From a virus (Duplodnaviria > Caudoviricetes), in IMG/VR virus record IMGVR_UViG_3300012952_003952, positions 160,001-224,000 of that record: DNA of 64,000 nt; one strand, given 5' to 3'. The position numbers and the translations under genes were made by a program. Positions 20,334 to 55,457 of the stretch are shown piece by piece (the first letter of the stretch is position 1; each line of letters starts with the position of its first letter). The notes beneath the pieces were generated by a model that saw only the letters and a list, made by a program, of their open reading frames with translations, had not been told where the DNA came from and searched no databases.

Positions 20334-20362
20334 ATTAGCTTTTTTTGTGTTATATTTTTAAC

Positions 20363-20788
20363 ATGAAGAAATGGAATCCACCAAAATCACCATGGAATCT
20401 TGTGCAAGAGCCATATTTCGGTGATGAATGGAAAATTCTTATATGCTGTCTGTTATTGAATCTTACGACTCACAAGCAAGTTAGAAAAATTTTAGACGAG
20501 TTATTTGAGAAATACCCTAATCCAAAATCTATGTGTTTGGCTGAAGAAGAAGATTTAAAAGATTTGCTTAGTTCTCTTGGTTTAGTTAACAAGAGAGCAA
20601 AAACGCTTATTCGGTTCTCTCATGAATACCTTACCAAAGATTGGAAGACGGCTAAAGATTTGTACGGCTGCGGAAAATATGCTGATGATGCATGGCATAT
20701 TTTTTGTGTCGGAGATTGGCAAAGCGTTGAGCCAAAAGATCACGCATTAAACTATTATCATGACTTTTTGAGGGAGAATTATGCCTGA
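20363..20788 (+). CDS. MBD4-like HhH DNA glycosylase
   Basis: WNPPKSPWNLVQE, WKILICCLLLNLT, LGL..KRAKTLIRFS and LYGCGKYADD match the MBD4 glycosylase domain pattern. Confidence 0.8.
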   Translation: MKKWNPPKSPWNLVQEPYFGDEWKILICCLLLNLTTHKQVRKILDELFEKYPNPKSMCLAEEEDLKDLLSSLGLVNKRAKTLIRFSHEYLTKDWKTAKDLYGCGKYADDAWHIFCVGDWQSVEPKDHALNYYHDFLRENYA

Positions 20789-27100: not shown

Positions 27101-27700
27101 CATGCAAAATTCAATAAAAGAGCTATTGAATCTTTAATCAAGATTAGAGCTTTTGATTCTCTTGATTGTGTGGGTCCAGACAAAACTTTCCAAAGTTATT
27201 CTCACATGCACACTGTACTCATGGAAAACTTTAATGATATCAGGAAGAGAACCAAGAAAGATCCTTATCGCGGCAAGAATAACTTTATTAAAGCTTTAGT
27301 AGAATCTCCTCGTTCTGAAGAGTGGTCTTTCGATGCGTTGATGAACTTTGAAGAAGAGTTGTTGGGAACTATTAACGTAGAAGCTCTTCTTCCGAAAAAA
27401 TTCGTGAAGAAGATGACCGAAAAGAATATCCATTCTTTAGACGATCATAACGGAAGAGAGTTTTATTGGTTCGTTTTGACTAAAGCTATACCTAAGCTTA
27501 CAAAAAACAAGAAGCCATACCTTCTTTTAAATGGAATAGCTTCAACTGGAAGGGTCCATAGAATGTTTTGCTGGGGAGTTCCTAAAGATGCTGACCTTCC
27601 GCCGTTTACTTTTTGTATAGCCGAAGTAGACAAAAACGACTTTGGGATGTCTACTAAGTGGAACAGAATTAAAAAATTTAGCTTTAATGATTTAGCTTAA
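24101..27700 (+). CDS. dnaE: DNA polymerase III alpha subunit (family C)
   Basis: PHP domain HAHSGFS..DG and TDHG, GRGSGAGSLV, PDIDTD, GRHAGG, KFDLLGL and YGFNKSHA motifs; C-terminal OB-like region. Confidence 0.97.
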   Translation: MKTPSKFFGLHAHSGFSIFDGLGYPQEHIDFCRENGLDGWSMTDHGHMNGFGHAYLHTEKLNKAGGNFKLIPGCEMYVHPDLDVWKLDYEINKTAKKGDKEALAILKKQREAIQTPLLAFVDEHDETLNVGLEGASLTVENEEETKSGKFYDPIKRRHHLVVLPKTSEGLQRLFHLVSRGYTEGFYRFPRVDYKMLKEAAKGGHLMVSTACIGGPLAYDVFQPLQETNFEDLIPSLFDDESLRNKILSKFEYSYDQLADAVGEENVMLELQFNKLPAQHLVNKAILEFARTRSLTDQLIVTCDSHYASPDHWKERELYKKLGWLNYQSFNPDNLPKSKEDLKCELYPKNAKQVWESYLETTEGHDFYEDSEIFDAIERTHDVAHEMIGEIHPDRKMKLPSYVVPKGQTANKALLEAAKAGLIKRGLANQPEYVDRMKTELKVIFDKNFSEYFLTMKAIIDLAREKMLAGPGRGSGAGSLVNYALYITDIDPVEYGLLFERFMSPERTEMPDIDTDIADRDELIKILRENFGNKNVIPISNYNTFKIKSLLKDVSRFYGIEFSEVNKTLASLERDVAQGRKADGVDAAFDISFEEAKKYSTKVSDYLEKYPQIADPINVLYKQNKALGRHAGGVIVSEKIEERMPLIVARGEMQTPWVEGMNYKHLEEFGWIKFDLLGLETLRIIERTISLVLQKSGVENPTFDQVVDWYNENIAPNVIDFNDSKVYKNVYHSGRWAGIFQCTQRGAQALFKRAKPESVVDLATLTSIYRPGPLSAKVDKLYIKAKNNPQNVFYGHPLIEQVLNSTYGMIIFQEQVMELCHVVAGFPKAECNKLRKMMKPVGSGNENVKKAAALKNKFVEGASQNGVDKNIASELYDRILYFSGYGFNKSHAVSYAVNSYHCAWLMTYYEQEWIQAYLEACSGNPKKLSKALSEVKALGYNIVPIDINKAGKAWSCVDDNSLMPSFLSCKGVGEAAVEEILEQRPYSSIEDLFWDEEGKWKHAKFNKRAIESLIKIRAFDSLDCVGPDKTFQSYSHMHTVLMENFNDIRKRTKKDPYRGKNNFIKALVESPRSEEWSFDALMNFEEELLGTINVEALLPKKFVKKMTEKNIHSLDDHNGREFYWFVLTKAIPKLTKNKKPYLLLNGIASTGRVHRMFCWGVPKDADLPPFTFCIAEVDKNDFGMSTKWNRIKKFSFNDLA

Positions 27701-27735: not shown

Positions 27736-28584
27736 ATGAATTCGAAATACAAAAATTTAAATCAAGCCTTTGTAGAAGAGTTAGTCGATTGCCACAAGAA
27801 CGGCGTAGAAGTTGAATCTCGTGGCTTCGTACAAAAAGAAAAACTTTTCTCTTCTTTTATAATTCAAGATCCCACCGATTTGCGAATTGATGTCCCAGCT
27901 AGAAAGTTCAATGAAGACTATGCAATTTTAGAATGGCTTTGGTACCTAAACTCTGACTCTAGAATAAAGACTATCGGTAAATTTGCAGATATTTGGAACA
28001 AGATTGCAGATTCGCAAGGGGTCGTTGAGTCTAACTATGGCTCTTATTTAAAGCCGTGCTGGTATGACTTAGTAGATGAGCTTATATCTGATAGAGATAC
28101 CCGTAGAGCAACTTGCGTAATTAATCAGCCATACCATAGGTTCAAAAACCCAAAAGACTATCCTTGTACGCACTATATTCACTTTTTTATCAGAGAAGAA
28201 GCTCTTCACATGGGCGTATATATGCGGTCTAATGATGCAGTTTTTGGTTTTTGTAACGACGTTTTCACCTTTGCGTTGTTTCAACAGCTTATGCTAAATG
28301 AACTAAACGCTCGCGGTGGTAAACTTTCATTAGGAACATACTACCACTCGGCTGGAAGCTTTCACGTATACGATAGACATTATTCTATGATGGAAAAGAT
28401 AGCTGAAAATTATTTTGTGAAAGCTAGAAGAAATGGGTATCCAACCGACTTAAAGAAAATAGTGCTAGATCCCAATTTAACCTGGCCGAAAATGGAAAAC
28501 TACACGTCTTTTTTCAATGAAGACTTAGACAAAGAAGAAGTTTTAAATACAATTAAAAAGACTAAGGAAATTATATTCAAATGA
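27736..28584 (+). CDS. Thymidylate-synthase-family enzyme resembling T4 gp42 dCMP hydroxymethylase
   Basis: SNYG, DTRR, DYPCT (catalytic Cys), MRSNDAVFGFCND and GSFHVYDRH. Asp occupies the position of E. coli ThyA Asn177, as in T4 gp42 (MRSNDVVFGFRND). Confidence 0.8.
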   Translation: MNSKYKNLNQAFVEELVDCHKNGVEVESRGFVQKEKLFSSFIIQDPTDLRIDVPARKFNEDYAILEWLWYLNSDSRIKTIGKFADIWNKIADSQGVVESNYGSYLKPCWYDLVDELISDRDTRRATCVINQPYHRFKNPKDYPCTHYIHFFIREEALHMGVYMRSNDAVFGFCNDVFTFALFQQLMLNELNARGGKLSLGTYYHSAGSFHVYDRHYSMMEKIAENYFVKARRNGYPTDLKKIVLDPNLTWPKMENYTSFFNEDLDKEEVLNTIKKTKEIIFK

Positions 28585-28862
28585 ATATTCTAAAAAAAGC
28601 AAATGAGATAATCAATGAAAGATCTGAAGAAAAAGAGCGCCAATACGGCCCAATGGGTGAAGGCCTTGAAAGAGCTGCGATGATTGCTTCTGGAATAACG
28701 GGTAAAGATTTAACAGCAGACGATATTTTTGCATGCCTCATCGGCCTTAAATTTTCTAGACATTCGTATAACTACAAAGAAGATAATTTTCTAGATGCTG
28801 CTGCTTATTTGGGAGCGTGGAACAATTACCAACAGGAGAAATTAAAAAGTGAAGATAAGTAA
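28581..28862 (+). CDS. Small all-helical phage protein (DUF6378-like)
   Basis: ILKKANEII...RQYG...LIGLKFSR...DNFLDAAAY pattern recalled for this family. Confidence 0.6.
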   Translation: MNILKKANEIINERSEEKERQYGPMGEGLERAAMIASGITGKDLTADDIFACLIGLKFSRHSYNYKEDNFLDAAAYLGAWNNYQQEKLKSEDK

Positions 28863-29283
28863 AGTAAGGGCAGTTAAAACACCGCAAAGGGGGACTCCAG
28901 AGTCAGCTGGAATTGATTTTTTCGTGCCAGAGGGAATGATAGCTAAATTATCGCCTGGAGACTCTTGCTTGATGCCAAGCGGAATCAAAGCCAATGTTCC
29001 ATCTGGCCATGCATTAATAGCGTTTAATAAGAGTGGAGTAGCAGTTAAGAAATCTCTTCACGTTGGGGCATGCGTCGTAGACGAAGATTATCAGGGCGAA
29101 ATTCACCTTAATTTAATCAATGTTGGCTCGAGCGTTGCAGAGATAAAATCTGGAGAAAAAATAGTCCAATTTATTTTACTTCCTGTTTTTTATGACACAA
29201 TTGAAGAAGTAGAATTGGAAAACCTTTACGAAGACGAAACTGTTCGAGGTGAAGGTGGTTTTGGTAGCACGGGAGTAGAATAG
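28849..29283 (+). CDS. dut: Trimeric dUTPase
   Basis: SAGID, KSG, GACVVDEDYQGE and RGEGGFGSTG motifs. Confidence 0.93.
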   Translation: MKISKVRAVKTPQRGTPESAGIDFFVPEGMIAKLSPGDSCLMPSGIKANVPSGHALIAFNKSGVAVKKSLHVGACVVDEDYQGEIHLNLINVGSSVAEIKSGEKIVQFILLPVFYDTIEEVELENLYEDETVRGEGGFGSTGVE

Positions 29284-30353
29284 TGGATTATTTTGTAGAT
29301 TATGAAATTCCTAAAAACTTTAAGATAGGGATCGACGGACTAGAGAGAAACATTCCGGCTAGAAAACACAGCCACAATGCTGCCTGGGTTCATCTCTACA
29401 AAAATATGCTACAATCTGCTGGCTGGAGTGATGTACACGTCTTAGGCAATCATGACACTTACGAAGGTTATGATGCTATGATATTTTATCCAGGAATTGC
29501 TTACGCTGGAACGATTAACTTCTTTTTTGGAGTTGACGACAATGTAGTTAGAAGGTTCTCCAGAATTCAAGATTTTGAAGGTCCGACTTTTATTTTAAAT
29601 CATGAAATGCCGCTCATTGGAGCGACGATCAGCAAAAGACTGCACAATAAATCGACAAGCTCGAAAATTGGAAATCTTAAACTGAGCTTATTAGATGATA
29701 TTTGCAAATCTACTCGCAGAATAGATTATGTTGAAAGATCAACAAAGCTTTGCTTTGGAGACAGTCATTGTTTTTCTGCTTATCTTCCAGGGTATTCTGT
29801 TTGCCGAAATGACGGGCTCACTCTTTTTTCTACGCTTCGCGATGGAGTAAAAGAGACCATTGAAGAAAAATATGGAGCTTCTGTTGAAAATTTGACTCAT
29901 CTTACTTTTTATATGGGCAATATTGATATAAGGCACCACTTGATGCGCCAAGAAAATCCATATGAAAAAATCCACGCTATGACTATCGAGCTTTCACACC
30001 AGCTTAAAAAACTTGATATACCAAACATTGAACTAGTTCACGCACTGCCTATCGAAAATATTTCTAGAAAACTTCCTAAAACTGGATATTATAAGAAGAC
30101 TCCATATTTCGGAACTTGGGAAGAAAGAACAAAATTAGTCAATACATTCAATGCCGCTGTAGATAGAATTTGTATAGAAAACAAATGGAATTCTTTCCAC
30201 TGGCCAGCTAAATTTTTAAATGATTCTGGTGAATTAGACTTTGAATATATGGAGCGCCCTAAAAGCGTACACTTAAGCCCGCTTTCTTATAGGTGGGACC
30301 TTTTTGAAAATCAATTAAATTTATTGCATAGTAATCAAAACAACGGAGAATAA
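29283..30353 (+). CDS. Two-domain protein: N-terminal segment resembling the T4 beta-glucosyltransferase N-domain, C-terminal SGNH-like domain
   Basis: YDAMIFY...TINFFFG compared with T4 BGT YDRLIVVNSSINFFGG; FGDSH (block I), YMGNID (block III) and SVHL (block V). Confidence 0.5.
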   Translation: MDYFVDYEIPKNFKIGIDGLERNIPARKHSHNAAWVHLYKNMLQSAGWSDVHVLGNHDTYEGYDAMIFYPGIAYAGTINFFFGVDDNVVRRFSRIQDFEGPTFILNHEMPLIGATISKRLHNKSTSSKIGNLKLSLLDDICKSTRRIDYVERSTKLCFGDSHCFSAYLPGYSVCRNDGLTLFSTLRDGVKETIEEKYGASVENLTHLTFYMGNIDIRHHLMRQENPYEKIHAMTIELSHQLKKLDIPNIELVHALPIENISRKLPKTGYYKKTPYFGTWEERTKLVNTFNAAVDRICIENKWNSFHWPAKFLNDSGELDFEYMERPKSVHLSPLSYRWDLFENQLNLLHSNQNNGE

Positions 30354-30354
30354 T

Positions 30355-31545
30355 ATGCCAAAAAACAAGTCAATTAGAGTTGCAATCGTCGGAGTCGGAA
30401 ATTGTGCTAATTCCTTTTACCAGGGCTTAACGTATTATGCGGGGTACACCGCTGGACAAGAGCGCGATGGAGTGATGAAGAGCCGAATCGGAGGATATTC
30501 GGTAGCTGATCTCGAGGTTGTAGCAGCATTCGACGTTGATAAACGAAAAGTTGGAAAGTGTTTTAGAGAAGCTATGCTAGCCAAACCAAACTGTACTCCA
30601 AGCTATGAGGCAAATGTTCCTGACGGTCCCGTAGTTCAAATGGGCCCAATCATGGACGGTGTTCCAAATTTGATGGCTAATTATTCTGATGAAGAAGCGT
30701 TTAGAACTGCTGATTTAGAACCAGTAGATGTGGCTCAAGTGTTATTAGACCGCAAAGTGGATATTCTTATCAACTATCTTCCTGTTGGTTCTCAGAAGGC
30801 CACCGAGTGGTATGCAGAACAGTGCCTTAAGACTGGAGTTTCTCTTCTTAACTGTATTCCAGTTTTTATTGCTTCTAATCCAGTTTGGGAGCAAAAGTTT
30901 ATTGATGCTGGAATTCCACTCGTTGGCGATGACATGAAATCTCAATTTGGGGCCTCTATTATGTCTCAAATGCTTCAAGAACTAGCTTTTGCTCGAGGTC
31001 TAAATGTTAAAGCTCACATTCAGCGAAATGTCGGTGGCAATACTGATTTCTTGAACATGGTAGATCAATCTCGGCTGAAATACAAGAAAGTTTCAAAGGA
31101 GAATGTAATTCGATCTCAACACGTAATTCGTGGTGTAGACCCCGAAGAATCTTTCCTCCATGCTGGGCCGTCTGAATATATTCGCTACTATGGAGATAAC
31201 AAGGTCGCAAACTTCCGAATTGAAATGGAGGGATTCCTTGGTGCCCCAGTTATTTTAGACGCGCAGCTTTCTGTAATTGACTCTCCTAACTCTGGAGGCG
31301 TTGTAATCGACGCCGCTCGGTATCTAAAAGTCGCCAGAGAGATGGGCATTGTAGGGGCTCTCAGAGGTCCGTCTGCTTTTACTCAGAAGACTCCGCCTCA
31401 ACAGCTTATGTTTAGTGAAACTCTTTATGAATGCGACGCTCTTTCTGATAGGAGGCTCACTCGATTTACTAAGCGCCAAACAGAAAAATACAGCGCTGAA
31501 GAGCTTTACCTATCGTGTCCAGCAGGAAACAAGGAAGTAGATTAA
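30355..31545 (+). CDS. ino1: Myo-inositol-1-phosphate synthase
   Basis: IVGVGNCANS (NAD binding), NYLPVGS, GDDMKSQFGA, GGNTDFLNM and DSPNSGGVVIDA motifs. Confidence 0.95.
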   Translation: MPKNKSIRVAIVGVGNCANSFYQGLTYYAGYTAGQERDGVMKSRIGGYSVADLEVVAAFDVDKRKVGKCFREAMLAKPNCTPSYEANVPDGPVVQMGPIMDGVPNLMANYSDEEAFRTADLEPVDVAQVLLDRKVDILINYLPVGSQKATEWYAEQCLKTGVSLLNCIPVFIASNPVWEQKFIDAGIPLVGDDMKSQFGASIMSQMLQELAFARGLNVKAHIQRNVGGNTDFLNMVDQSRLKYKKVSKENVIRSQHVIRGVDPEESFLHAGPSEYIRYYGDNKVANFRIEMEGFLGAPVILDAQLSVIDSPNSGGVVIDAARYLKVAREMGIVGALRGPSAFTQKTPPQQLMFSETLYECDALSDRRLTRFTKRQTEKYSAEELYLSCPAGNKEVD

Positions 31546-32261
31546 TGGCTAAATTGCATGAGCAAAAAGGAAAACTTTTTAATCCAGACTCTGAAGATTT
31601 TGAAGAGTGTGTAATAAAGTTTAACGGAAGGAATGGGTTTTGGTACAGACCAGGCACTTTTGATTTAAATTCTATAAGAGAGTGCAGAGACAATTATAGC
31701 GATATTGACACTTGCGGGAAAACAGTTTTAGATTTAGGAGCCAACATTGGAGGATTTTCAAGAATGGCTCTAGAAAAAGGAGCTAAAAAAGTAATAGCTT
31801 TAGAGCCATGCCCTCATAATTTTCAAATTTTAGAGATCAATGCCCCAAATGCAGAATGTCTAAATGCTGCAGTTTGCGAAAGCAAGGTAAAAGAAGTAGT
31901 TTTTCATTATGCTGGATCTAAAAGAAACTCAGTGTCGTCTTCTACTCTTAAAAGAAGAAATGCTTCTGGAGTATCTATTGCAGTACCAGGATTATCATTT
32001 TCAAGTCTTTTAGAAAAATATAGGCCAGAAATATTAAAAATAGACATTGAAGGTAAAGAGTACGACATTTTAGATTCTATTAAAGAAATTCCAGATTTCG
32101 TAGAAATAGTAGGGATTGAGTTTCACAATACTCGTAAGCCATACTCAGAATATCCAGTTAAATTTTTCCCAGAGTCCACTTGGAAGAAAGTAGAACACCC
32201 TATTTTGATGTTCGGACAGAAAAAAGTTTTAGATTACACTTTTTATAGAAAGTATGCATAG
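31545..32261 (+). CDS. FkbM-family SAM-dependent methyltransferase
   Basis: VLDLGANIGGFS, IALEP, NAAV and ILKIDIEGKE motifs; start overlaps the ino1 stop (TAATG). Confidence 0.88.
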   Translation: MAKLHEQKGKLFNPDSEDFEECVIKFNGRNGFWYRPGTFDLNSIRECRDNYSDIDTCGKTVLDLGANIGGFSRMALEKGAKKVIALEPCPHNFQILEINAPNAECLNAAVCESKVKEVVFHYAGSKRNSVSSSTLKRRNASGVSIAVPGLSFSSLLEKYRPEILKIDIEGKEYDILDSIKEIPDFVEIVGIEFHNTRKPYSEYPVKFFPESTWKKVEHPILMFGQKKVLDYTFYRKYA

Positions 32262-32270
32262 GAAATATTA

Positions 32271-32687
32271 ATGAAAGTAAATGGTTTTGATATTGATGGA
32301 GTTATCCATCTTGGAGACGGAGTCTGCGGCATTCGCCCGGGCCCTGGAGATGTTATCATCACAGGACGAAGCTTTGAAGAAGAAGCTGAGACTCTAGCTT
32401 TTCTTCGGCGCAATGGAATTAATAACCCAGTTTTTTTTAACCAGTGCCATTATGAGGAAAAATCTCGAACAGGGTCAGGAAATCATAAGGCGGAAACTAT
32501 TAAGCTTCTCCACAGAGCTGGCTTAAGCGTTCAATATTTTTTTGAAGATGATGAAGTTCAAAAAGCTGAAATTGAAAGAGGCATCGAAGAAGTCTCAACT
32601 TGGGGAATCGGAACTAAAGTTATTCACGTCAACAATCCTCATGTTAAGAAAGAAAATAGACGTCATTTAGAGGATTTAAATGAGTAA
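32271..32687 (+). CDS. Capless HAD-family phosphatase
   Basis: GFDIDGVI (DxD), ITGRS, a conserved Lys and FFEDD. Confidence 0.8.
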   Translation: MKVNGFDIDGVIHLGDGVCGIRPGPGDVIITGRSFEEEAETLAFLRRNGINNPVFFNQCHYEEKSRTGSGNHKAETIKLLHRAGLSVQYFFEDDEVQKAEIERGIEEVSTWGIGTKVIHVNNPHVKKENRRHLEDLNE

Positions 32688-34134
32688 TTCTGAACTTCTT
32701 AAAATGAGGGATGAAGAACTCTTTGCAGAGATACCCACTTACAAAAAGCAAGATTTTGTCGACTTTATAAAAGAGCTTAACAGAAGAGAGTACTTAGTAA
32801 GATTTGCAAAGTCGTGTACTTTTGACTCTTTTGAGCATTTGCCTGGAACTGGATTTAAATACGGGAACGGCTTTATAGTAGACGGCAAATCAGTACCTTA
32901 CTTCCACCCCAATCGTAGTTTTCATGATGAGATAATTTGGTTAAACGAGAACCTATTCTATAATCCCCAAGCTACGTTTGAAGATAAACTTATTAATGCG
33001 GCGATAGTGAAATTCTATGGGCCTTCTAATACCCTTAAACTAATTGCTGAGGGCACCGGCAAGAAATTCGTGGACTACAAGAGGTTCGTGGGAGATCCTA
33101 AATACTTGAGGCAGGTTTGCGTCAATTTAGAAACAGCAGTTAAGAATAAAGAAAAGATTTATGGAACAACTGAGCTTAGGACAAGCTTACAAACAGCTGG
33201 TAGAAATTATGCTAGAAGCGTTGGTTCTCCAATTGATAAAATAGAATTAATTCCAGTTTCTGAAAGGAAATCTCGTACGTGCCGTCCCTCTGATATTCTT
33301 TTTTGGTTTACTAAAATCGGCCCTGATTTTGTTAAATTTTATAAAACAACACCCAACATGGAAGAGTCTTTTAAGTTTTTAAATTCATTTCGAGGAATTG
33401 GAAATTATTATGGATACCATTTTAGTTGTAACCTTGCTCGAATGCCAGAAGTAGGAAATTTAATTTTTAAGGGAACTCCTGGAAAAATTGACGAAGACGA
33501 CGAGTATGTAGTTCCTGGGGTTGGAGCAATGCAAGCGATTAATTGGTTTTATGAACACAGGGGACACTCAATTAATACAAAAGTTGGAAAGAAATTAATC
33601 AATGCTATTCGACGTCACCAAAATAGTTTCTTTGACTTAAATAATGCTGATAATTCTAAATTCTATATGGAAAAAGTTTCTGAACTGGGATATTTTACTA
33701 ATTTTGGATGTGAAATATCTTGCTGCCAGTTTGGAGTTTATCGTCGACTAAGAGAAGATAAAAAATTAGCTCTAAGGAGAGCAGCAGCGCCAATATCAAG
33801 AGAGGAAGTAAAAATGATTCTTACGCCCAAAACACTAATGCAAAAACTCGGTCTTTTATCTGAAGAAGATTCTAATGTTGAAAATAAAAATCAAAGTATT
33901 GAAAAAGATTCTTCACTAGATTTTTCTTCGACTAGCAAAGAAGACTTGATCCTTAACATCATTGATGAAGCTGGAGGTTCTTGTTCACATTCTTCAGTTG
34001 CTAAATTAATCGAAGAAAAAGGATACACTCAGTATAAGCAAAATGGTTCTTGGAAAGAGAGCTGGATGATAATGAGGCAACTTGTTGAAAAGGGGGCCTT
34101 AGTAAAAGACGGAAAATTTTATCGGAGGTCATAG
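32680..34134 (+). CDS. aGPT-Pplase / 5-HMUDK-helical-like DNA base-modifying enzyme (HhH-glycosylase fold) with a C-terminal winged-helix-like domain
   Basis: YFHPNRSFHD, FRGIGNYYGY, DEYVVPGVGA and EISCCQFGVYRR parallel the FTN.YR.D / PGIG.F / GPGA / LCE.DKY.R pattern recalled for this family. Confidence 0.6.
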   Translation: MSNSELLKMRDEELFAEIPTYKKQDFVDFIKELNRREYLVRFAKSCTFDSFEHLPGTGFKYGNGFIVDGKSVPYFHPNRSFHDEIIWLNENLFYNPQATFEDKLINAAIVKFYGPSNTLKLIAEGTGKKFVDYKRFVGDPKYLRQVCVNLETAVKNKEKIYGTTELRTSLQTAGRNYARSVGSPIDKIELIPVSERKSRTCRPSDILFWFTKIGPDFVKFYKTTPNMEESFKFLNSFRGIGNYYGYHFSCNLARMPEVGNLIFKGTPGKIDEDDEYVVPGVGAMQAINWFYEHRGHSINTKVGKKLINAIRRHQNSFFDLNNADNSKFYMEKVSELGYFTNFGCEISCCQFGVYRRLREDKKLALRRAAAPISREEVKMILTPKTLMQKLGLLSEEDSNVENKNQSIEKDSSLDFSSTSKEDLILNIIDEAGGSCSHSSVAKLIEEKGYTQYKQNGSWKESWMIMRQLVEKGALVKDGKFYRRS

Positions 34135-35312
34135 TGTCAGATATTAAGTGGGGAACAATTATTCCTCTTATTGGCGGAAGCGCTATAGGGTGCTCACAAG
34201 CTACTAAAAATAAACCAGAGTTTCATCTTAGCTACTCTGCTTTCGGCGCTAACGAAAAATATCTAACTGACTACTGGAAAGATGTTCCGAGAATAGTTTT
34301 AGATGAAGGTGGAAAAATACCAAACGAAAAAATTGATTTTATCAATTCTGTTTGTCCGTGCGCAGGCCTAAGCCAGCTTAATACTTCTAGAAGTAAAGAT
34401 ATGCGTGAATCTAAAAACTATTGGATGTACGAATCTGCACAGAGAATCTTAAGCGAACTACGCCCTAGAGTTTATTGGGGAGAAAATGCGCCCGGCCTTT
34501 TTACTAATTCAGGCGCGTACGTGCGTGATAAGCTTAAAGTTTTTGCTAAAGAAAACGGCTACACTTTTTCTCTTTACAAGACCGATACGCAAAGGCACGG
34601 TATTCCGCAACGCAGAGTAAGAACTTTTTACTTTTTCTGGAGAGACACTAACCCTCCTCTCTTGAGCTATTTTAATAACCCTCCCATTCCATTCGCCGAG
34701 TACATAAGACAGATACCGCAATCTGCAACCCTTCAAGATCAATTTAACATCGAAGGGAAAATCTCTGAAAATTTTGATTCTTATGCTTTTGTGTTACAAT
34801 ATCTTGGGTTGGCGCATGAAGAGTTCGTGAAGTCTAATGATTCTGGCTCTATTCACTCTATTTTTTCTTATCTATCAGAAAATAATCTTTTAGCCGAGTG
34901 TATTGAGTGGATTGAAAAAAGAAATATTGAAGAAACTGCAGAACACAGACGACTCAAAGCTATTTACAAAAAAGTTCAAGCGGGTGGAAGATTTATGGAT
35001 GCTTCTCCTGGATATTATTACAACCGCACTAATGCAATCGTAGGAAGAACCTTGACCCATTTAGTACACCCCACTGAAGACAGAGGGATGTCTATTAGAG
35101 AGCTTCTTCATATGATGGGACTGCCCCATGATTTTGAAATGGGCGATAGAAAATCTCTAAATGTAATCGCTCAAAATGTTCCAACTTGTACAGCTAGAGA
35201 TATGGCAAGTCAAGTTATAGAATACTTAAGAGGTGATTTACAAATTGCAGAAAACAGCTTTTTAATGCAAAATAACCTAAAAGAGGAGATTACATTATGC
35301 GAGCCCTTGTAA
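34134..35312 (+). CDS. C5-cytosine DNA methyltransferase homolog with a non-canonical motif I
   Basis: CPCAGLS (motif IV), GENAPG (VI), PQRRVR (VIII) and RELLHMMGLP..F / AQNVP (IX-X); motif I reads IPLIGG rather than FxGxG. Confidence 0.8.
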   Translation: MSDIKWGTIIPLIGGSAIGCSQATKNKPEFHLSYSAFGANEKYLTDYWKDVPRIVLDEGGKIPNEKIDFINSVCPCAGLSQLNTSRSKDMRESKNYWMYESAQRILSELRPRVYWGENAPGLFTNSGAYVRDKLKVFAKENGYTFSLYKTDTQRHGIPQRRVRTFYFFWRDTNPPLLSYFNNPPIPFAEYIRQIPQSATLQDQFNIEGKISENFDSYAFVLQYLGLAHEEFVKSNDSGSIHSIFSYLSENNLLAECIEWIEKRNIEETAEHRRLKAIYKKVQAGGRFMDASPGYYYNRTNAIVGRTLTHLVHPTEDRGMSIRELLHMMGLPHDFEMGDRKSLNVIAQNVPTCTARDMASQVIEYLRGDLQIAENSFLMQNNLKEEITLCEPL

Positions 35313-36283
35313 CTGGCGGATGCGGTTTTATCGGATCTTGTTTAACTAAAAAATTGGTAGATTTAGGCTGGGACGTAGAAATAGTAGATGATATGTCTAA
35401 TGGAGATTATTCTTTTTTAGAAGAGTATTCTTTTCGTAGCGTCCCTGTTCAAATGGGACATATTTTCGAAAATCAAAATTTGAAAAAAGATGACGTTATT
35501 ACTGTTTTGGTAGGAGATTTTGTTAGCCAAGAAGTTGTTAGAAGGATTGTTGAAAAAAAATATGACGTAATTTTTCACCTTGCAGCTAACCCAAGAGTAG
35601 AATACTCGGTGCAAAATCCGCTAGAGACTACAGACGAAAACCTTACAAAGACCATAAGGCTTTTTACTCATGCTGTGGGTAATGTCAAGAGAGTTGTTTT
35701 TTCTTCTAGTTGCTCAGTGTATGGAGACCCTTGGAGTCTTCCAACTACAGAAAGCCATGGAAAAAACCCTAACAGTCCTTATGCTCTTCAAAAGCAATGT
35801 GTTGAAGAATACGCTAAACTCTACTCAAAAATATATGATTTAGATGTAGCTTGCTTGAGGTACTTTAACGTATATGGTCCATTTCAGCATGGCGACTCTC
35901 CTTACTCTACTGCCATAGTTTCTTGGTGTGATAAAGTATCTAAGGGTTTGCCTCTTCGGAGTGATGGAGATGGCACTCAATCTAGAGACATGGTTTTTGT
36001 AGAAGATGTAGCGCGAGCTAATATTTTAGCTGCTACTAGAGAAGAAAATTTCAATGGAAAGTCTATAAACATAGGAAGCGGCGCTTCTTATACCAATAAT
36101 CAGATTTTAGATATTTTTAAAAATCAATTTGGAAATTTAGAAATCACACATGCTCCAGAACGGCCTGGAGACGTAAAGCACACGCAAGCAGATGTTAAAG
36201 AAGCTAGATCTAAATTAGGCTTTACTACTGAATACAGCTTAGAAGAAGGGTTGAAAAAGACCTTTGCTTGGTGGGACTTATAA
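35297..36283 (+). CDS. NAD-dependent nucleotide-sugar epimerase/dehydratase
   Basis: TGGCGFIG, HLAA, FSSS, YALQK (YxxxK) and RYFNVYGP motifs. Confidence 0.93.
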   Translation: MRALVTGGCGFIGSCLTKKLVDLGWDVEIVDDMSNGDYSFLEEYSFRSVPVQMGHIFENQNLKKDDVITVLVGDFVSQEVVRRIVEKKYDVIFHLAANPRVEYSVQNPLETTDENLTKTIRLFTHAVGNVKRVVFSSSCSVYGDPWSLPTTESHGKNPNSPYALQKQCVEEYAKLYSKIYDLDVACLRYFNVYGPFQHGDSPYSTAIVSWCDKVSKGLPLRSDGDGTQSRDMVFVEDVARANILAATREENFNGKSINIGSGASYTNNQILDIFKNQFGNLEITHAPERPGDVKHTQADVKEARSKLGFTTEYSLEEGLKKTFAWWDL

Positions 36284-36837
36284 TGACAAACCCTCAATTC
36301 ATTATTTTTACTGGACCGATGTTTGGAGGCAAGACCACGAGGCTATTGTCTGCTTTAGATAGATACGTTCACCAAAAGAAAGATGTTTTAGCTTTCAAGC
36401 CAGATATCGACAAAAGGTACGGGAAAGAGTCTATTAACACTCACACTGGCGGAAAGATTGATGCCATCAGAGTTGCGACTGGTGAAGATATAGCACAATG
36501 CGTTCTAGAAAAAGCAGAAAATAAGTTGGTAGAAATCATTGCAGTAGATGAAGCTTTCATGATACCCGGCTCTGCTAACGTGCTAATAAATCTTTTCAAC
36601 AAAGGATTCACTATCTTGATATCTACTTTACAGCTATGTTCTGACGGTACGTCTTATAAAGAAATTAGAGAAATGATGCCTTGGGCTACTAAAATAGAAA
36701 TCTGCCCTGCGGTTTGTACAGTGTGTGGATCCGATGCGTATTACACTTTTAAAAAAGGCGGAAATAGCCACCAGCAAATTGAAGTTGGAGGAGCTGATTT
36801 ATACGAGCCCCGCTGTTTAACTCACTTTGAATTTTGA
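36283..36837 (+). CDS. tdk: Thymidine kinase (type II)
   Basis: GPMFGGKTT, VDEA, C-terminal CxxC and GG..LYEPRC motifs. Confidence 0.9.
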   Translation: MTNPQFIIFTGPMFGGKTTRLLSALDRYVHQKKDVLAFKPDIDKRYGKESINTHTGGKIDAIRVATGEDIAQCVLEKAENKLVEIIAVDEAFMIPGSANVLINLFNKGFTILISTLQLCSDGTSYKEIREMMPWATKIEICPAVCTVCGSDAYYTFKKGGNSHQQIEVGGADLYEPRCLTHFEF

Positions 36838-36844
36838 ATAATTA

Positions 36845-36873
36845 ATGAAATTATTCCCACTTTTTATTATAAT
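36845..36873 (+). promoter_or_regulatory. Sigma70-like promoter
   Basis: ATGAAA, 17-bp spacer, TATAAT (36868-36873); GAGG RBS follows. Confidence 0.6.
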
Positions 36874-36894
36874 ATAGATAGAGGACTATGAAAT

Positions 36895-37323
36895 ATGCCT
36901 GAATACAAAAGCTCTTGGAAATCAAAATCATCTAGTCATTTGACCCCATGGGGATCTGAGATCCGGTGGGCTGCTACTTCTGGCTGTGTAGGTAAATGTT
37001 TAAGCGTAAAAAAGGGAATGAGAACCAGTTTAAAGTACTATAAAATGAAAGATGAAGTGCTATTTTTGTATCGCGGCAAAATATTGGTTACTCACGGAGA
37101 CGAGAAAACTATAGAAGATCCAACTCGCCACCCGTATGTTAAAAGCTATCTTGCTCCAGGAGAGATGGTGATAATTCAAAGCGGTTGTCCTTATAGAATA
37201 GAAGCTTTAGAAGATTCTGAAGTTATTGAGATAGGAACGAACCGCGGTGCTGGAATTGGTGACCGAGTTATGGTAGAAGATGATTTTGGTAGAGTAGAAA
37301 AACCAGAAAGTGGAGAAATATAA
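36895..37323 (+). CDS. Cupin-fold protein (sugar isomerase-like)
   Basis: TPWGSE, LAPGEMVII..G.PYRIEA and VIEI; the usual metal-binding His residues look partly replaced. Confidence 0.6.
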   Translation: MPEYKSSWKSKSSSHLTPWGSEIRWAATSGCVGKCLSVKKGMRTSLKYYKMKDEVLFLYRGKILVTHGDEKTIEDPTRHPYVKSYLAPGEMVIIQSGCPYRIEALEDSEVIEIGTNRGAGIGDRVMVEDDFGRVEKPESGEI

Positions 37324-38223
37324 ATGATCGTAAGTGATCCATCTTCAGTAAACGTGGTAATTTATCACGCCGATTGTACGGACGGTTTCGGCGCAGCATA
37401 TTCAGCTTGGAAACTCCTCGGCAATCGCGCAGAGTACTACGCTTGTAAGCACGGAACGCCACCGCCTGAAGTAAAAGACAAAAACGTTGTAATCTTAGAT
37501 TTTTCTTTTGATAATGCGACGACTAAAAAAATGATAGAAGAAGCATCTGCTTTATTGGTTATTGATCACCATAAATCAGCAGTAGTAGAGCTTCACGATA
37601 TCAGCAACACTATTTTTGATATGACAAAGTCTGGAGCTATGTTATCATGGGAATGGTTTCATCCAGGAAAAGAGCCGCCAAAATTTATAAAATACATTCA
37701 AGACAGAGATTTGTGGAAGTGGGAACTTGATTATTCTAAAGAGTTTAGCGCTGCGTTTGATATGGTGCCATTCGAGTTTGAAGAGTTTGAAAAATTTGAA
37801 GACGATTCAGTTTTTGATGATGCAGTAAAACGAGGTTCTTACATTTTAGCTTATAGTAAAACCGTCGTCAAGAAAGTATGCGAAAAAGCCCAACCTAGAA
37901 AAATGGATGGGAAAGATGTTTTGGTGGTTAACGCTTCTCACTGGATGTCTGAGATTGGCTCAAGGCTAGCTCCTGATTGTGATTTCGCAATGATATGGTA
38001 TTGGGATCATGATGCACAGCATACAAAAGTTTCTCTGAGAGCTTTTCATGACGCGGTTGATGTTTCTGAGATCTCGAAGAAGTTTGGCGGAGGTGGCCAT
38101 AAAAAAGCAGGAGGGTTTCAACTTCCTAAGAATAAACACGTAGAAGATTTATTCGACAAACCAAAACCAGCAAGAAAGAAAAGAGCTTCAAAAACAAAGG
38201 TTAAACAAGATGAGTCGTCCTAG
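37324..38223 (+). CDS. DHH/DHHA1-family phosphoesterase
   Basis: YHADCTDG, ILDF, IDHH and GGGHKKAGG motifs. Confidence 0.88.
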   Translation: MIVSDPSSVNVVIYHADCTDGFGAAYSAWKLLGNRAEYYACKHGTPPPEVKDKNVVILDFSFDNATTKKMIEEASALLVIDHHKSAVVELHDISNTIFDMTKSGAMLSWEWFHPGKEPPKFIKYIQDRDLWKWELDYSKEFSAAFDMVPFEFEEFEKFEDDSVFDDAVKRGSYILAYSKTVVKKVCEKAQPRKMDGKDVLVVNASHWMSEIGSRLAPDCDFAMIWYWDHDAQHTKVSLRAFHDAVDVSEISKKFGGGGHKKAGGFQLPKNKHVEDLFDKPKPARKKRASKTKVKQDESS

Positions 38224-38614
38224 TTGGGATCAGATCTGGATGAATTTTGCAGAATCTATTTCTGAAAGATCTTATGATCCAAGGTTTCAAGTTGGAGCAG
38301 TCGTTGTAACTGAAGACAACAGCCAGGTTTTAGCTGTTGGATACAATGGAAATTATGCCGGCGGACCCAATCAAGTAGAGTCAGAAACCCCTGGAGAGTC
38401 TGGTATGCTACATGCTGAAATTAATGCGCTCTTAAAAATGGATTATAATAACCCTAAAAAGAAAAAGCTTTATTTAACTCTATCGCCTTGTAGAATGTGC
38501 GCAAAGGCTATAATTAATAGTGGAATTAAAGAAGTAGTCTACGCTGAAGCTTACAGGGATCTTTCGGGGATAAAACTTTTAAAAGAATGTGGCATATCAG
38601 TAAGACACTTTTGA
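38210..38614 (+). CDS. dCMP deaminase
   Basis: HAEINAL and PCRMC zinc-binding motifs, GYNG. Confidence 0.92.
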   Translation: MSRPSWDQIWMNFAESISERSYDPRFQVGAVVVTEDNSQVLAVGYNGNYAGGPNQVESETPGESGMLHAEINALLKMDYNNPKKKKLYLTLSPCRMCAKAIINSGIKEVVYAEAYRDLSGIKLLKECGISVRHF

Positions 38615-40658: not shown

Positions 40659-41023
40659 AAGTTGAAAAAATTGCGAACGGCTTACTTTACGAAAGGTATA
40701 AAAGAAAACTTTTAGAAGCTCTTTCCGAAGTAGATGTTTTAGATGATCAGGGTAATATCATAATATCGAAAGATTTAAAAGTGAAACATAAAGATTCTGG
40801 TTTTGAATACACAGTAGATGATGTAGTAGATGATAATGGAAATGTCAGTATCTATCTTAGAGATCCCACTGCCCCGCGTATAGAAGATCCACCAGGAGAC
40901 GAAACTTTATTAGGCGCTCCTCCAGCCGCAGATTTTCTTCATGAAGAAGACGACGAAGACGAAGAAGATACTGTATTTGTAATAGATCAAAGTGAATTTG
41001 AAAAGGAATACGAAATAAAATGA
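40655..41023 (+). CDS. Acidic hypothetical protein
   Basis: 122-aa ORF translationally coupled to its neighbours. Confidence 0.6.
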   Translation: MKVEKIANGLLYERYKRKLLEALSEVDVLDDQGNIIISKDLKVKHKDSGFEYTVDDVVDDNGNVSIYLRDPTAPRIEDPPGDETLLGAPPAADFLHEEDDEDEEDTVFVIDQSEFEKEYEIK

Positions 41024-54993: not shown

Positions 54994-55055
54994 ATCTATT
55001 CAGATTAACATTTTTCTTCTTTGTTTAAAATAGAAAAGTAATAAGAGAGTTCACA

Positions 55056-55433: not shown

Positions 55434-55457
55434 ATCCATATAAGAGGAGTTTTATTT

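What the first reader, a model, noticed from the sequence alone, without database searches (positions are those of the whole stretch)
27736..38614. Candidate new DNA hypermodification pathway using inositol
Seen: one tightly coupled run of genes (most junctions overlap or are under 15 bp apart) directly after dnaE. In order: gp42-like dCMP hydroxymethylase homolog, DUF6378-like protein, dUTPase, BGT-like/SGNH fusion, myo-inositol-1-phosphate synthase, FkbM methyltransferase, HAD phosphatase, aGPT-Pplase-type DNA modifier, atypical C5 methyltransferase, NDP-sugar epimerase, thymidine kinase, then cupin, DHH phosphoesterase and dCMP deaminase. Known: T-even phages make hm-dCMP and glycosylate it in DNA; phiW-14, ViI and M6 use aGPT-Pplase-family enzymes to phosphorylate hmU in DNA and substitute it with amines or amino acids; Ino1 converts glucose-6-phosphate to inositol-1-phosphate. 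I know of no characterised phage base carrying inositol. Inference: a hydroxymethylated pyrimidine is decorated with inositol or inositol-phosphate, trimmed by the HAD enzyme and possibly O-methylated (FkbM) or acylated (SGNH), as an anti-restriction/anti-CRISPR shield. Caveats: no NTP-transferase to activate inositol is visible in the window, and Ino1, FkbM and the epimerase could instead serve surface-glycan synthesis.
Basis: partly seen in the sequence, partly recalled or inferred. Interest (0 to 1): 0.9.

Follow-up and report, generated by a model that had tools for sequence, protein, structure and literature searches.

The report
Phage inositol module for hydroxymethylcytosine DNA
A marine jumbo phage links genes for making inositol to enzymes that work on hydroxymethylcytosine in DNA, and the same link recurs in many unrelated phages, which points to an undescribed inositol-bearing DNA base that has not yet been shown chemically.

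Summary

- **Base:** the thymidylate-synthase homologue carries the residues published for 5-hydroxymethyl-dCMP synthases, so the modified base is cytosine.
- **Conserved core:** five genes form it.
  - a virus-only 356-aa protein with an SGNH-type catalytic domain;
  - a true inositol-3-phosphate synthase (Ino1);
  - a small HAD phosphatase;
  - an FkbM methyltransferase;
  - a stand-alone helical domain of the 5-hmdU-DNA-kinase type (PF18723), here with a winged helix.
- **Co-occurrence:** among 73 viral loci outside this phage's own clade, found through the helical protein, 70 hold Ino1, 69 the 356-aa protein and 68 the HAD. Gene order is shuffled and the polymerases differ. The reverse survey from Ino1 gives 22 of 25.
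- **Fusions:** the helical protein is fused to the 356-aa protein in Aeromonas phages 31 and 44RR2.8t, and to FkbM in one metagenomic contig.
- **Aeromonas variant:** these phages lack Ino1 but have a sugar/polyol sodium symporter next to the fusion.
- **Precursor gene:** all seven module-bearing records tested also hold the hydroxymethylase-type homologue.

No kinase, NDP-activating enzyme or DNA glycosyltransferase lies in the module, so the attachment chemistry is inferred. No paper describes such a base. This scan has flagged the same theme on other phage DNA.

The parts
24101..27700 (+). DnaE-type replicative polymerase; context gene that heads the run
   Evidence: 1199-aa ORF. In the relative L007 the orthologue carries PHP, DNA_pol3_alpha, finger and HHH_6 domains.
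27736..28584 (+). Thymidylate-synthase homologue, predicted 5-hydroxymethyl-dCMP synthase (T4 gp42 type)
   Evidence: PF00303, 64 bits. Best solved relatives are MilA CMP hydroxymethylase and T4 dCMP hydroxymethylase. The motifs DYPCTH and RSNDAVFGFCND give L143D, D169 kept and N177D in E. coli ThyA numbering, the signature described in PMC13326640.
28581..28862 (+). DUF6378 protein, function unknown; often sits next to the module
   Evidence: PF19905, 48 bits. Present in 49 of 73 loci outside the window's clade.
28849..29283 (+). dUTPase-family enzyme (dUTPase, possibly also a dCTPase)
   Evidence: PF00692, 77 bits, with a weak dCTP-deaminase-like hit.
29283..30353 (+). p356: virus-specific two-domain protein. 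The N-terminal alpha/beta domain is unidentified and the C-terminal domain is SGNH-type; core module gene.
   Evidence: No Pfam or NCBIfam hit. The AlphaFold model has pLDDT 89.9. Residues 150-354 match SGNH esterases and O-acetyltransferases with Z up to 13.3. GDSH 159-162, GNID 212-215 and H330 are invariant. It is fused to the PF18723 protein in Aeromonas phage 31 ORF233c.
30355..31545 (+). Inositol-3-phosphate synthase (Ino1/MIPS); core module gene
   Evidence: PF01658. TIGR03450, 328 bits. M. tuberculosis Ino1 (1GR0), E = 9e-88, scores well above the cyclitol synthase Ari2. The GVGNCA, GDDMKSQ, GGNTDFLN and DSPNS motifs are kept.
31515..32261 (+). FkbM-family SAM methyltransferase (the true start may be near 31545); frequent module gene
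   Evidence: PF05050, 55 bits; TIGR01444, 86 bits. LDLGxNxG is conserved in 41 sequences. It is fused N-terminally to the PF18723 domain in L010 as a 718-aa open frame under table 11.
32271..32687 (+). Small capless HAD phosphatase; core module gene, almost always next to Ino1
   Evidence: phrog_415, PNK phosphatase part. Language-model neighbours are Acid_phosphat_B and HAD_PNKP clusters. Motifs DxDGV, ITGR, K and EDD are conserved in 61 sequences. It follows Ino1 also in phages Mendera, Cr30 and RP13.
32680..34134 (+). HMUDKh: stand-alone helical domain of the 5-hmdU-DNA-kinase / aGPT-Pplase clade 1 type (residues 1-375) plus a C-terminal winged helix (about 418-484); core module gene
   Evidence: PF18723, 29.5 bits against a cut-off of 25; 38 of 39 homologues hit it. 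The model has pLDDT 88. BFVD fold hits include the SP10 5-hmdU DNA kinase, PhiW-14 and phiRSL1. The winged-helix tail matches wH domains. Invariant features are GIGNYYGYH, E345, C349 and Q350. No Walker A motif is present.
34134..35312 (+). C5-cytosine methyltransferase homologue; accessory gene (this clade and a T4-like group)
   Evidence: PF00145, 66 bits. CPCAGLS, GENAP and QRRVR align to motifs IV, VI and VIII. IIPLIGG, NE, RE and QNVP are conserved in 19 sequences.
35297..36283 (+). GalE-like NDP-hexose 4-epimerase; accessory gene, mainly this clade
   Evidence: PF01370, 169 bits. TIGR01179 galE, 175 bits. Best solved relatives are UDP-GlcNAc and UDP-Glc 4-epimerases.
36268..36837 (+). 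Thymidine kinase
   Evidence: PF00265, 116 bits.
36895..37323 (+). 142-aa protein, possibly cupin-like; function unknown
   Evidence: phrog_7851 'cysteine dioxygenase', E = 1e-14. Cupin_2 reaches only E = 0.2.
37324..38223 (+). DHH/DHHA1 phosphoesterase (NrnA-like)
   Evidence: PF02272, 29.6 bits; PF01368, 22.7 bits.
38210..38614 (+). dCMP deaminase
   Evidence: PF00383, 83 bits. It lies next to the gp42-like gene in the T4-like group of module loci.
20339..20788 (+). Small HhH-GPD DNA glycosylase; context gene outside the finding, possibly for repair of deaminated modified cytosine
   Evidence: PF00730, 35.5 bits. A 147-aa HhH-GPD gene lies directly upstream of DUF6378 and the module in L011 and L012.

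Best explanation
The cluster encodes a two-stage cytosine hypermodification.

Stage 1, before replication (well supported). The ThyA homologue turns dCMP into 5-hydroxymethyl-dCMP. The dUTPase-family enzyme, dCMP deaminase and thymidine kinase balance the pyrimidine pools, as in T-even phages. The phage DnaE polymerase then builds 5hmC into DNA.

Stage 2, after replication (inferred).
- Ino1 makes inositol-3-phosphate from host glucose-6-phosphate, and the small HAD enzyme releases myo-inositol, a compound many bacteria lack.
- The stand-alone HMUDK_hel-type protein has an HhH-like GIG motif, invariant Glu345 and Cys349, and in this clade a winged helix. It binds DNA and presents or activates the 5-hydroxymethyl group. 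This probably runs through Cys attack on C6 and an exocyclic methylene, as in the amino-acid:DNA transferases.
- The 356-aa SGNH-type protein is fused to the helical domain in Aeromonas phages. It takes the place that the P-loop kinase holds in thymidine systems, either activating the hydroxymethyl group (for example by O-acylation) or tailoring the attached group.
- An inositol hydroxyl adds to the methylene, giving an ether-linked inosityl-methyl-cytosine.
- FkbM, fused to the helical domain in one phage, O-methylates the DNA-bound group.

The C5-methyltransferase homologue and the GalE-like epimerase are clade-specific extras. The expected purpose is protection from restriction and other DNA-targeting defences.
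For: Shown by tools:
1. The gene identities hold.
2. The hydroxymethyl-dCMP signature (L143D, D169 kept, N177D) is present in the window's ThyA homologue. It is also present in every module-linked homologue aligned, in 20 loci that partly overlap, judged by the criteria in PMC13326640.
3. In the survey anchored on HMUDKh, 73 loci lie outside the window's clade. Ino1 is in 70, p356 in 69, HAD in 68, FkbM in 52 and DUF6378 in 49. Gene order differs between groups, and the backbones use DnaE, family-B or T4-like replication genes.
4. In the survey anchored on Ino1, 22 of 25 loci with at least 3.5 kb on both sides carry p356, HAD and HMUDKh.
5. Two fusions exist: p356-HMUDKh in Aeromonas phages 31 and 44RR2.8t, and FkbM-HMUDKh in L010 as one open frame under table 11.
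6. All six other large records with the module that were tested also hold a hydroxymethylase-type ThyA homologue, often beside a normal ThyA, and so does the window's own genome.
7. Aeromonas phage 31 lacks Ino1 but has an SGLT-type sodium:solute symporter directly upstream of the fusion (vSGLT, 351 bits). This fits import in place of synthesis of a sugar or polyol co-substrate.
8. Catalytic motifs are conserved in p356, HAD, FkbM and HMUDKh.
9. The phage's general glycan genes sit in a separate island about 130 kb away, so the Ino1 genes are not part of it.

Established knowledge: in phage ViI a serine hydroxyl adds to the activated 5-methylene of hmU (PMC8989533), so an O-nucleophile is precedented.
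Against: - There are no chemical data on any phage carrying the module.
- The module holds no kinase, NDP-transferase or glycosyltransferase, so how either partner is activated is unknown. PF18724 (the known transferase) is absent from the genome.
- The N-terminal domain of p356 is unidentified, and its SGNH chemistry (acyl transfer) has no obvious place in ether formation.
- The role of PF18723 domains has not been shown biochemically, even in thymidine systems.
- No dNMP kinase, thymidylate kinase or dCTPase of known type was found in the 242 kb held, a record estimated to be 57% complete.
- Some viral contigs, including giant-virus bins, carry Ino1 without the module. Cultured phages Mendera, Cr30 and RP13 carry Ino1-HAD in other contexts.
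- Aeromonas phages run p356-HMUDKh without Ino1, so inositol is not strictly required by these two proteins.
Confidence: 0.5

Rival explanations
1. The module does modify 5hmC in DNA, but the appended group is not inositol. p356 (SGNH) would acylate the 5-hydroxymethyl group, or FkbM would O-methylate it. Inositol phosphate would serve only indirectly, for example as a phosphoryl donor used by the HAD enzyme, as a cofactor, or for a separate purpose.
For: - p356-HMUDKh works without Ino1 in Aeromonas phages.
- p356 alone sits beside a UDP-galactopyranose mutase in Aes012-type phages.
- FkbM is fused directly to the DNA-recognition domain.
- SGNH enzymes are acyl transferases or esterases.
- Class B and PNKP-type HAD enzymes can act as phosphotransferases (established knowledge; family hint).
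Against: - Ino1 and HAD are the most constant partners, present in 70 and 68 of 73 loci, more constant than FkbM at 52 of 73.
- A full synthase is a costly way to supply a phosphoryl donor when ATP is at hand.
- The Aeromonas phages replace Ino1 with a sugar/polyol importer, which points to a consumed substrate.
Confidence: 0.2
2. Ino1, HAD and FkbM are auxiliary metabolic genes. They would make free inositol or methyl-inositol for osmoprotection, membrane lipids, or virion or host-surface glycans. Their place next to DNA genes would reflect shared early expression only.
For: - Ino1, or Ino1-HAD, occurs without the module in some viral contigs and in cultured phages.
- This genome has a large glycan island with glycosyltransferases, a sugar kinase, a GFO/IDH/MocA oxidoreductase and an NTP-transferase.
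- FkbM enzymes commonly methylate glycans.
Against: - The Ino1 genes lie about 130 kb from the glycan island.
- Linkage to p356 and HMUDKh survives gene-order shuffling across groups with different replication genes.
- FkbM is fused to a DNA-modification domain.
- The genome has no CDP-alcohol phosphatidyltransferase.
Confidence: 0.12
3. The target is thymine or 5-hydroxymethyluracil, as in the known 5-HMUDK systems, with dCMP deaminase and dUTPase feeding dUMP.
For: PF18723 is known only from thymidine hypermodification systems. dCMP deaminase and dUTPase are present.
Against: - The only ThyA homologue has Asp at the N177 position, which selects dCMP, in this genome and in all module-linked homologues.
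- There is no P-loop kinase and no PF18724 transferase.
Confidence: 0.05
4. The DNA carries only plain 5hmC or 5mC, and the helical protein, p356 and FkbM act on RNA or another polymer.
For: No direct evidence for the substrate of any module protein. The complex prediction gave no answer.
Against: - HhH-like and winged-helix features are present.
- The family is known only from DNA modification.
- The module is constantly linked with a dCMP hydroxymethylase and with replication genes.
Confidence: 0.05

Closest known systems
Thymidine hypermodification pathway of phages ViI, M6, PaMx11, PhiW-14 and SP10 (5-hmdU DNA kinase plus amino-acid:DNA transferase; PMC5889632, PMC8989533, PMC13458397)
   Same: A ThyA homologue makes a hydroxymethyl-pyrimidine nucleotide before replication. 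The group is then replaced on finished DNA. A PF18723 helical domain is present. In ViI an oxygen nucleophile (the serine hydroxyl) is added. Tailoring enzymes act on DNA-bound groups, and a phage dCMP deaminase and dUTPase-type enzyme belong to the set.
   Different: Here the base is cytosine. There is no P-loop kinase domain, no PF18724 transferase, and no PLP, radical-SAM or flavin tailoring enzymes. Ino1, HAD, FkbM and an SGNH-type protein stand in their place, and the helical domain stands alone or is fused to these.
T-even phage 5hmC synthesis and glucosylation (gp42, gp56, alpha- and beta-glucosyltransferase)
   Same: A gp42-type dCMP hydroxymethylase with the same active-site signature. 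dCMP deaminase and thymidine kinase sit in the same gene set. A glucose-derived polyhydroxy group is the presumed decoration, and the purpose is anti-restriction.
   Different: No GT-B DNA glucosyltransferase and no UDP-sugar donor lie in the module. The donor would be a carbocyclic polyol made by the phage itself, and the linkage cannot be a glycosidic bond.
Arabinosyl-5-hydroxycytosine pathway of RB69 and DLP3 (PMC13326640)
   Same: A ThyA homologue is clustered with phage-encoded genes that build the appended sugar from a host sugar phosphate, including a HAD phosphatase.
   Different: Those synthases carry D169N and make 5-hydroxy-dCMP, whereas here D169 is kept. Those clusters contain nucleotide-sugar steps and glycosyltransferases.
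Aeromonas phages 31 and 44RR2.8t, ORF233c (795 aa) with upstream ORF234c
   Same: ORF233c is a fusion of p356 (about 34% identity) and HMUDKh (about 41% identity) with the same catalytic motifs. The phage also has a gp42-like ThyA homologue. These are the nearest cultured relatives of the module.
   Different: They have no Ino1, HAD or FkbM. An SGLT-type sodium:solute symporter sits next to the fusion instead. All of these genes are annotated as hypothetical and are uncharacterised.
Bacterial and archaeal inositol synthesis (Ino1 plus inositol monophosphatase), as in mycothiol and di-inositol-phosphate pathways
   Same: Ino1 is 298 bits from M. tuberculosis Ino1 and keeps the family motifs. 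It is followed by a phosphatase.
   Different: The phosphatase is a small capless HAD, not an IMPase-family enzyme. No cytidylyltransferase, glycosyltransferase or CDP-alcohol transferase follows.

Membership tests
dCMP hydroxymethylase (T4 gp42 type, ThyA superfamily) | ThyA fold and family match, with the catalytic Cys | tested here: met
   PF00303, 64 bits. Cys in DYPCTH aligns with the catalytic Cys of T4 gp42 and MilA.
dCMP hydroxymethylase (T4 gp42 type, ThyA superfamily) | Asp at E. coli N177 (dCMP choice), an acidic residue at L143 (hydroxymethyl product), and Asp169 kept (not the D169N of 5-hydroxy-dCMP synthases) | tested here: met
   RSNDAVFGFCND and DYPCTH; criteria taken from PMC13326640.
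dCMP hydroxymethylase (T4 gp42 type, ThyA superfamily) | The product is 5-hydroxymethyl-dCMP | not testable with these tools
   Needs an enzyme assay or nucleoside analysis.
5-hmdU DNA kinase (5-HMUDK) | PF18723 helical domain | tested here: met
   29.5 bits against a cut-off of 25; 38 of 39 homologues hit it; fold match to the SP10 kinase and to PhiW-14.
5-hmdU DNA kinase (5-HMUDK) | P-loop kinase domain | tested here: not met
   No kinase family hit and no GxxxxGK[ST] motif in the sequence. The C-terminus is a winged helix.
Amino-acid:DNA transferase (aGPT-Pplase clade 2, PF18724) | Family match | tested here: not met
   No PF18724 hit on the protein or its 38 relatives. None was found in the genome either, although that genome search rang in no control.
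Amino-acid:DNA transferase (aGPT-Pplase clade 2, PF18724) | Essential Cys with a nearby Glu in an HhH-containing fold | tested here: inconclusive
   E345 and C349 are invariant, and a GIG hairpin motif is present. Their equivalence to the clade 2 residues was not established.
myo-Inositol-3-phosphate synthase | Family domain, NAD-binding motif and catalytic motifs; closer to true synthases than to other cyclitol synthases | tested here: met
   PF01658. 1GR0, E = 9e-88, against Ari2, E = 2e-49. GVGNCA, GDDMKSQ, GGNTDFLN and DSPNS are kept. The score of 328 bits is below the mycothiol-type equivalog cut-off of 638.
SGNH hydrolase / acyltransferase | SGNH fold with block I Ser, block III Asn and block V His | tested here: met
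   Z up to 13.3 over residues 150-354. GDSH, GNID and H330 are invariant, also in the Aeromonas and Tenacibaculum phage homologues. The Asp of DxxH is absent. No sequence-family hit (Lipase_GDSL, E = 0.097).
T4 beta-glucosyltransferase-like (GT-B) domain | Sequence or fold match of the N-terminal half of p356 to BGT | tested here: inconclusive
   No PDB profile hit, and BGT is not among the listed Foldseek or VIA matches. The tool warns that residues 1-145 were barely tested. No language-model hit.
FkbM methyltransferase | Family match above the cut-off and a SAM-binding motif | tested here: met
   TIGR01444, 86 bits against 37.7. LDLGxNxG is conserved.
HAD phosphatase | Motifs I-IV (DxDx[TV], S/T, K, DD) | tested here: met
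   FDIDGVI, ITGR, HK and FFEDD are conserved in 61 sequences. phrog_415. The Pfam hit is only E = 0.2.
C5-cytosine DNA methyltransferase | Catalytic motifs IV (PC), VI (ENV) and VIII (QxRxR), and SAM motifs I and II | tested here: inconclusive
   CPCAGLS, GENAP and QRRVR are present. Motif I reads IIPLIGG rather than FxGxG, and NE and QNVP are conserved. Whether it binds SAM or acts on 5hmC cannot be told.

The most novel reading that the evidence does not exclude
A widespread family of marine and freshwater phages replaces cytosine with 5hmC and then couples a phage-made cyclitol, myo-inositol (often O-methylated), to the base. The route would need neither a kinase nor a nucleotide sugar. It would use a stand-alone HMUDK_hel-type DNA enzyme and a virus-only SGNH-type partner. 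This would be the first carbocyclic polyol found on DNA. Relatives would either synthesise the polyol (Ino1 plus HAD) or import it (the Aeromonas phage symporter).
Probability: 0.45. Interest if true: 0.9.

Novelty: new variant of a known kind. Interest (0 to 1): 0.82.

Why it matters
- **Chemistry.** Known phage pyrimidine decorations are sugars, amino acids and polyamines. A cyclitol ether on cytosine would be a new chemical class of DNA base.
- **Enzymology.** It would involve a cytosine-side counterpart of the thymidine pathway that works without the kinase or the known transferase. It would also give a first function to the PF18723 domain outside kinases and to a large virus-only SGNH family.
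- **Abundance.** The module is common in environmental viromes: at least 90 HMUDKh loci and at least 457 viral Ino1 relatives in one collection. It could therefore affect sequencing bias, restriction and CRISPR sensitivity, and host-range inference for many uncultured phages.
- **Testability.** Cultured Aeromonas phages 31 and 44RR2.8t carry the p356-HMUDKh fusion. Mendera, Cr30 and RP13 carry the Ino1-HAD pair. These make the question open to experiment now.

Tried and rejected
- **Nucleotide search of the phage collection:** no match, so no close cultured relative is held.
- **Sequence and profile searches of p356 and HMUDKh against solved structures:** nothing usable.
- **Foldseek of the HMUDKh model against PDB:** only the small winged-helix tail matched; the helical core had no solved relative.
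- **Language-model searches of the p356 N-terminal domain and of DUF6378:** no usable hit.
- **Complex prediction for HMUDKh (1-380) with p356:** no answer, score 0.00. This is neither support nor evidence against binding.
- **Promoter and terminator scan:** counts equal to shuffled background, so uninformative.
- **Search of records behind the ENA and JGI loci L010 and L012:** not held.
- **Sequencing runs:** only marine DNA metagenomes kept as contigs, with no RNA run and no raw reads.
- **Family searches of the held 242 kb:**
  - ThyX, thymidylate kinase and T4-type dNMP kinase: none found.
  - CDP-alcohol phosphatidyltransferase: none found.
  - PF18724: none found.
- **Idea that the FkbM-HMUDKh fusion was an artefact of reading through TGA:** rejected, because the frame is open for 718 codons under table 11.
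- **5-hydroxy-dCMP synthase reading of the ThyA homologue:** rejected, because D169 is kept.

Full report
**The observation**

They are packed tightly: the junctions run from a 31-nt overlap to a 57-nt gap, and most are overlaps of 1-16 nt.

Family searches confirm the following:
- a thymidylate-synthase homologue, DUF6378 and a dUTPase;
- an inositol-phosphate synthase;
- an FkbM methyltransferase;
- a PF18723 (5-hmdU DNA kinase helical domain, formerly aGPT-Pplase clade 1) protein;
- a C5-methyltransferase homologue;
- a GalE-like epimerase;
- thymidine kinase, a DHH/DHHA1 phosphoesterase and dCMP deaminase.

The 138-aa protein is a capless HAD phosphatase by motifs and by PHROG. The 'cupin' rests on a PHROG hit only.

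The window lies at 160,001-224,000 of a 241,978-bp marine viral contig. It has no close relative among deposited phages.

**Which base**

The ThyA homologue is closest to MilA CMP hydroxymethylase and to T4 dCMP hydroxymethylase.

A 2026 paper gives active-site diagnostics (PMC13326640):
- N177D selects dCMP.
- An acidic residue at L143 goes with a hydroxymethyl product.
- D169N marks the newly found 5-hydroxy-dCMP synthases.

The window protein reads DYPCTH and RSNDAVFGFCND. That gives L143D, D169 kept and N177D, which is the hydroxymethyl-dCMP type.

It is the only ThyA-family gene in the held genome, and no ThyX is present.

**The two unknown proteins**

*p356 (29283-30353).* It has no family match, but it has at least 710 homologue clusters, all uncharacterised and mostly from metagenomes.
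- A confident model (pLDDT 89.9) shows a C-terminal SGNH fold over residues 150-354, with Z up to 13.3.
- GDSH, GNID and a distal His are invariant, including in the Aeromonas and Tenacibaculum phage homologues.
- The N-terminal alpha/beta domain stayed unidentified. I found no support for a beta-glucosyltransferase likeness, although that half was barely tested.
- Its structural neighbours in the ESM Atlas are virus-only clusters. One is a giant-virus protein in which the unit is joined to glycosyltransferase domains.

*The 484-aa protein (HMUDKh, 32680-34134).* The model has pLDDT 88.
- It is a helical domain that matches the SP10 5-hmdU DNA kinase, PhiW-14, phiRSL1 and 'Pplase1' models.
- It also has a C-terminal winged helix.
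- It has no P-loop, and neither it nor its relatives hit the transferase family PF18724.
- Invariant residues include a GIGNYYGYH hairpin motif and E345, C349 and Q350.

*Survey anchored on the helical protein.* Searching IMG/VR with it gave 90 relatives, of which 80 loci were kept. I scored these, together with six loci obtained by look-up of individual homologues, using tblastn. The counts among the 73 loci outside the window's own DnaE clade are:

| Gene | Loci (of 73) |
|---|---|
| Ino1 | 70 |
| p356 | 69 |
| HAD | 68 |
| FkbM | 52 |
| DUF6378 | 49 |
| ThyA homologue within 10 kb | 15 |
| C5-methyltransferase homologue | 11 |
| dCMP deaminase | 11 |

- Identity of the helical protein falls to 26% across these loci.
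- Gene order differs between groups. HAD lies before or after FkbM, and p356 lies upstream or downstream.
- The backbones carry DnaE, family-B polymerase or T4-like genes.

*Survey anchored on Ino1.* There are at least 457 viral relatives. Of the 25 top loci with at least 3.5 kb on each side, 22 carry p356, HAD and the helical protein.

*ThyA homologue.* All six other large module-bearing records that I could search hold a hydroxymethylase-type ThyA homologue, usually in addition to a normal ThyA. With the window's own genome that makes seven of seven. Every module-linked homologue aligned carries the same three diagnostic residues.

**Fusions and a substitution**

- In Aeromonas phages 31 and 44RR2.8t, p356 and the helical domain form one 795-aa protein.
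- In contig L010, FkbM and the helical domain form one 718-codon frame that is open under the standard bacterial code.
- The Aeromonas phages have no Ino1. The gene directly upstream of their fusion is a sodium:solute symporter of the SGLT branch, with Vibrio vSGLT at 351 bits. I read this as import replacing synthesis of a sugar or polyol co-substrate. The substrate itself is not known.
- In Aes012-type phages a p356 homologue stands alone next to a UDP-galactopyranose mutase.
- In the cultured phages Mendera, Cr30 and RP13, Ino1 is followed directly by a homologue of the same small HAD (34-54% identity). This happens without the rest of the module. In Mendera the pair lies inside a 7-deazaguanine gene set.

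Ino1-HAD therefore behaves as a portable two-gene inositol kit.

**Is Ino1 a real synthase?**

It scores 298 bits (E = 9e-88) against M. tuberculosis Ino1. The five-membered cyclitol synthase Ari2 scores 172 bits. The NAD-binding and catalytic motifs are kept. Inositol-3-phosphate is the most likely product.

**Mechanism**

Shown:
- the gene identities;
- the cytosine-type hydroxymethylase signature;
- the conserved five-gene core;
- the fusions.

Inferred:
- 5hmC is built in before replication.
- Ino1 and HAD supply myo-inositol.
- The helical protein binds and activates 5hmC in DNA, with Cys349 and Glu345 as candidates for the C6 attack that clade 2 enzymes use (PMC8989533).
- p356 takes the place of the missing kinase or tailors the adduct.
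- An inositol hydroxyl adds to the 5-methylene, as the serine hydroxyl does in ViI.
- FkbM methylates the bound group.

I put this at 0.5.

**The weak points**

- There are no chemical data.
- There is no activating enzyme in the module.
- The N-terminal domain of p356 is unassigned.
- No dNMP kinase or dCTPase of known type was found in the 242 kb held, a record estimated to be 57% complete.
- p356 plus the helical domain can exist without Ino1.

**Rivals**

- The adduct is an acyl or methyl group and inositol phosphate acts only indirectly (0.2).
- Ino1, HAD and FkbM serve free-pool or glycan needs (0.12). The genome's large glycan island lies about 130 kb away and has its own NTP-transferase, kinase and glycosyltransferases, which argues against this.
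- The target is thymine (0.05).
- The target is not DNA (0.05).

**Comparison with known systems, and novelty**

The system works like the thymidine hypermodification pathways and shares their PF18723 domain. It fails two membership tests, because it has no P-loop kinase and no PF18724 transferase. It shares the gp42-type first step with T-even phages but has no DNA glycosyltransferase.

Full-text searches found no report of inositol on DNA, or of this module.

Earlier notes of this scan flag the same Ino1-plus-phosphatase theme in at least 11 other genomes, in both hmC and thymidine contexts. These are unverified leads. My own surveys cover the hmC type only.

I class the finding as a new variant of a known kind, with high interest. 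The decisive test, nucleoside mass spectrometry, is feasible on cultured relatives.

Noticed in passing
L004:6375-7898 (Aeromonas phage 31 ORF234c; same arrangement in 44RR2.8t): A phage-encoded 507-aa sodium:solute symporter of the SGLT branch (vSGLT, 351 bits) lies directly upstream of the p356-HMUDKh fusion gene. Both are annotated as hypothetical. A membrane transporter in a T4-like phage is unusual in itself.
   Followed up: partly
G000:C1:43000-82000 (same genome, outside the window; loci L019, L020): A large glycan-synthesis island: several GT2, GT4 and GT9 glycosyltransferases, an NTP-transferase (54907-55596), a PfkB sugar kinase, a GFO/IDH/MocA oxidoreductase, an FAD/NAD(P)-binding oxidoreductase and a second SDR epimerase. 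The target (virion, host surface or DNA) is unknown.
   Followed up: partly
window 20339-20788 (+): A small stand-alone HhH-GPD DNA glycosylase. A similar 147-aa gene sits directly upstream of DUF6378 and the module in the family-B-polymerase phage contigs L011 and L012. It may repair deaminated modified cytosine.
   Followed up: partly
L001:8101-13627 (Stenotrophomonas phage Mendera): The Ino1-HAD pair lies between GTP cyclohydrolase I and a QueE-like gene, that is, inside a 7-deazaguanine DNA-modification gene set. Cr30 and RP13 also have Ino1 followed by the same HAD.
   Followed up: partly
L005:4740-8014 (Aeromonas phage Aes012): A UDP-galactopyranose mutase, an unknown 358-aa protein and a stand-alone p356 homologue sit side by side in the early region between motA and nrdC.10. 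This looks like another uncharacterised DNA-decoration set.
   Followed up: no
L127, L130, L152 (IMG/VR contigs labelled GVMAG) and L128, L143: Ino1 genes 60-65% identical to the window's occur without p356, HAD or HMUDKh nearby, some in bins labelled as giant-virus MAGs. Viral Ino1 therefore has at least one other context.
   Followed up: no
window 38664-40658 (+) and 41020-41706 (+): A 664-aa protein with no family match follows the run; its counterpart in the relative L007 is 1026 aa. Further on lies a protein that hits only the C-terminal domain of Fe/Mn superoxide dismutase.
   Followed up: no
L083 / G005 (IMG/VR contig of 360,227 bp with direct terminal repeats): A complete jumbo phage carries the module in yet another order (p356, Ino1, HMUDKh, HAD, C5-methyltransferase homologue), together with both a normal ThyA and a hydroxymethylase-type homologue.
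   Followed up: partly
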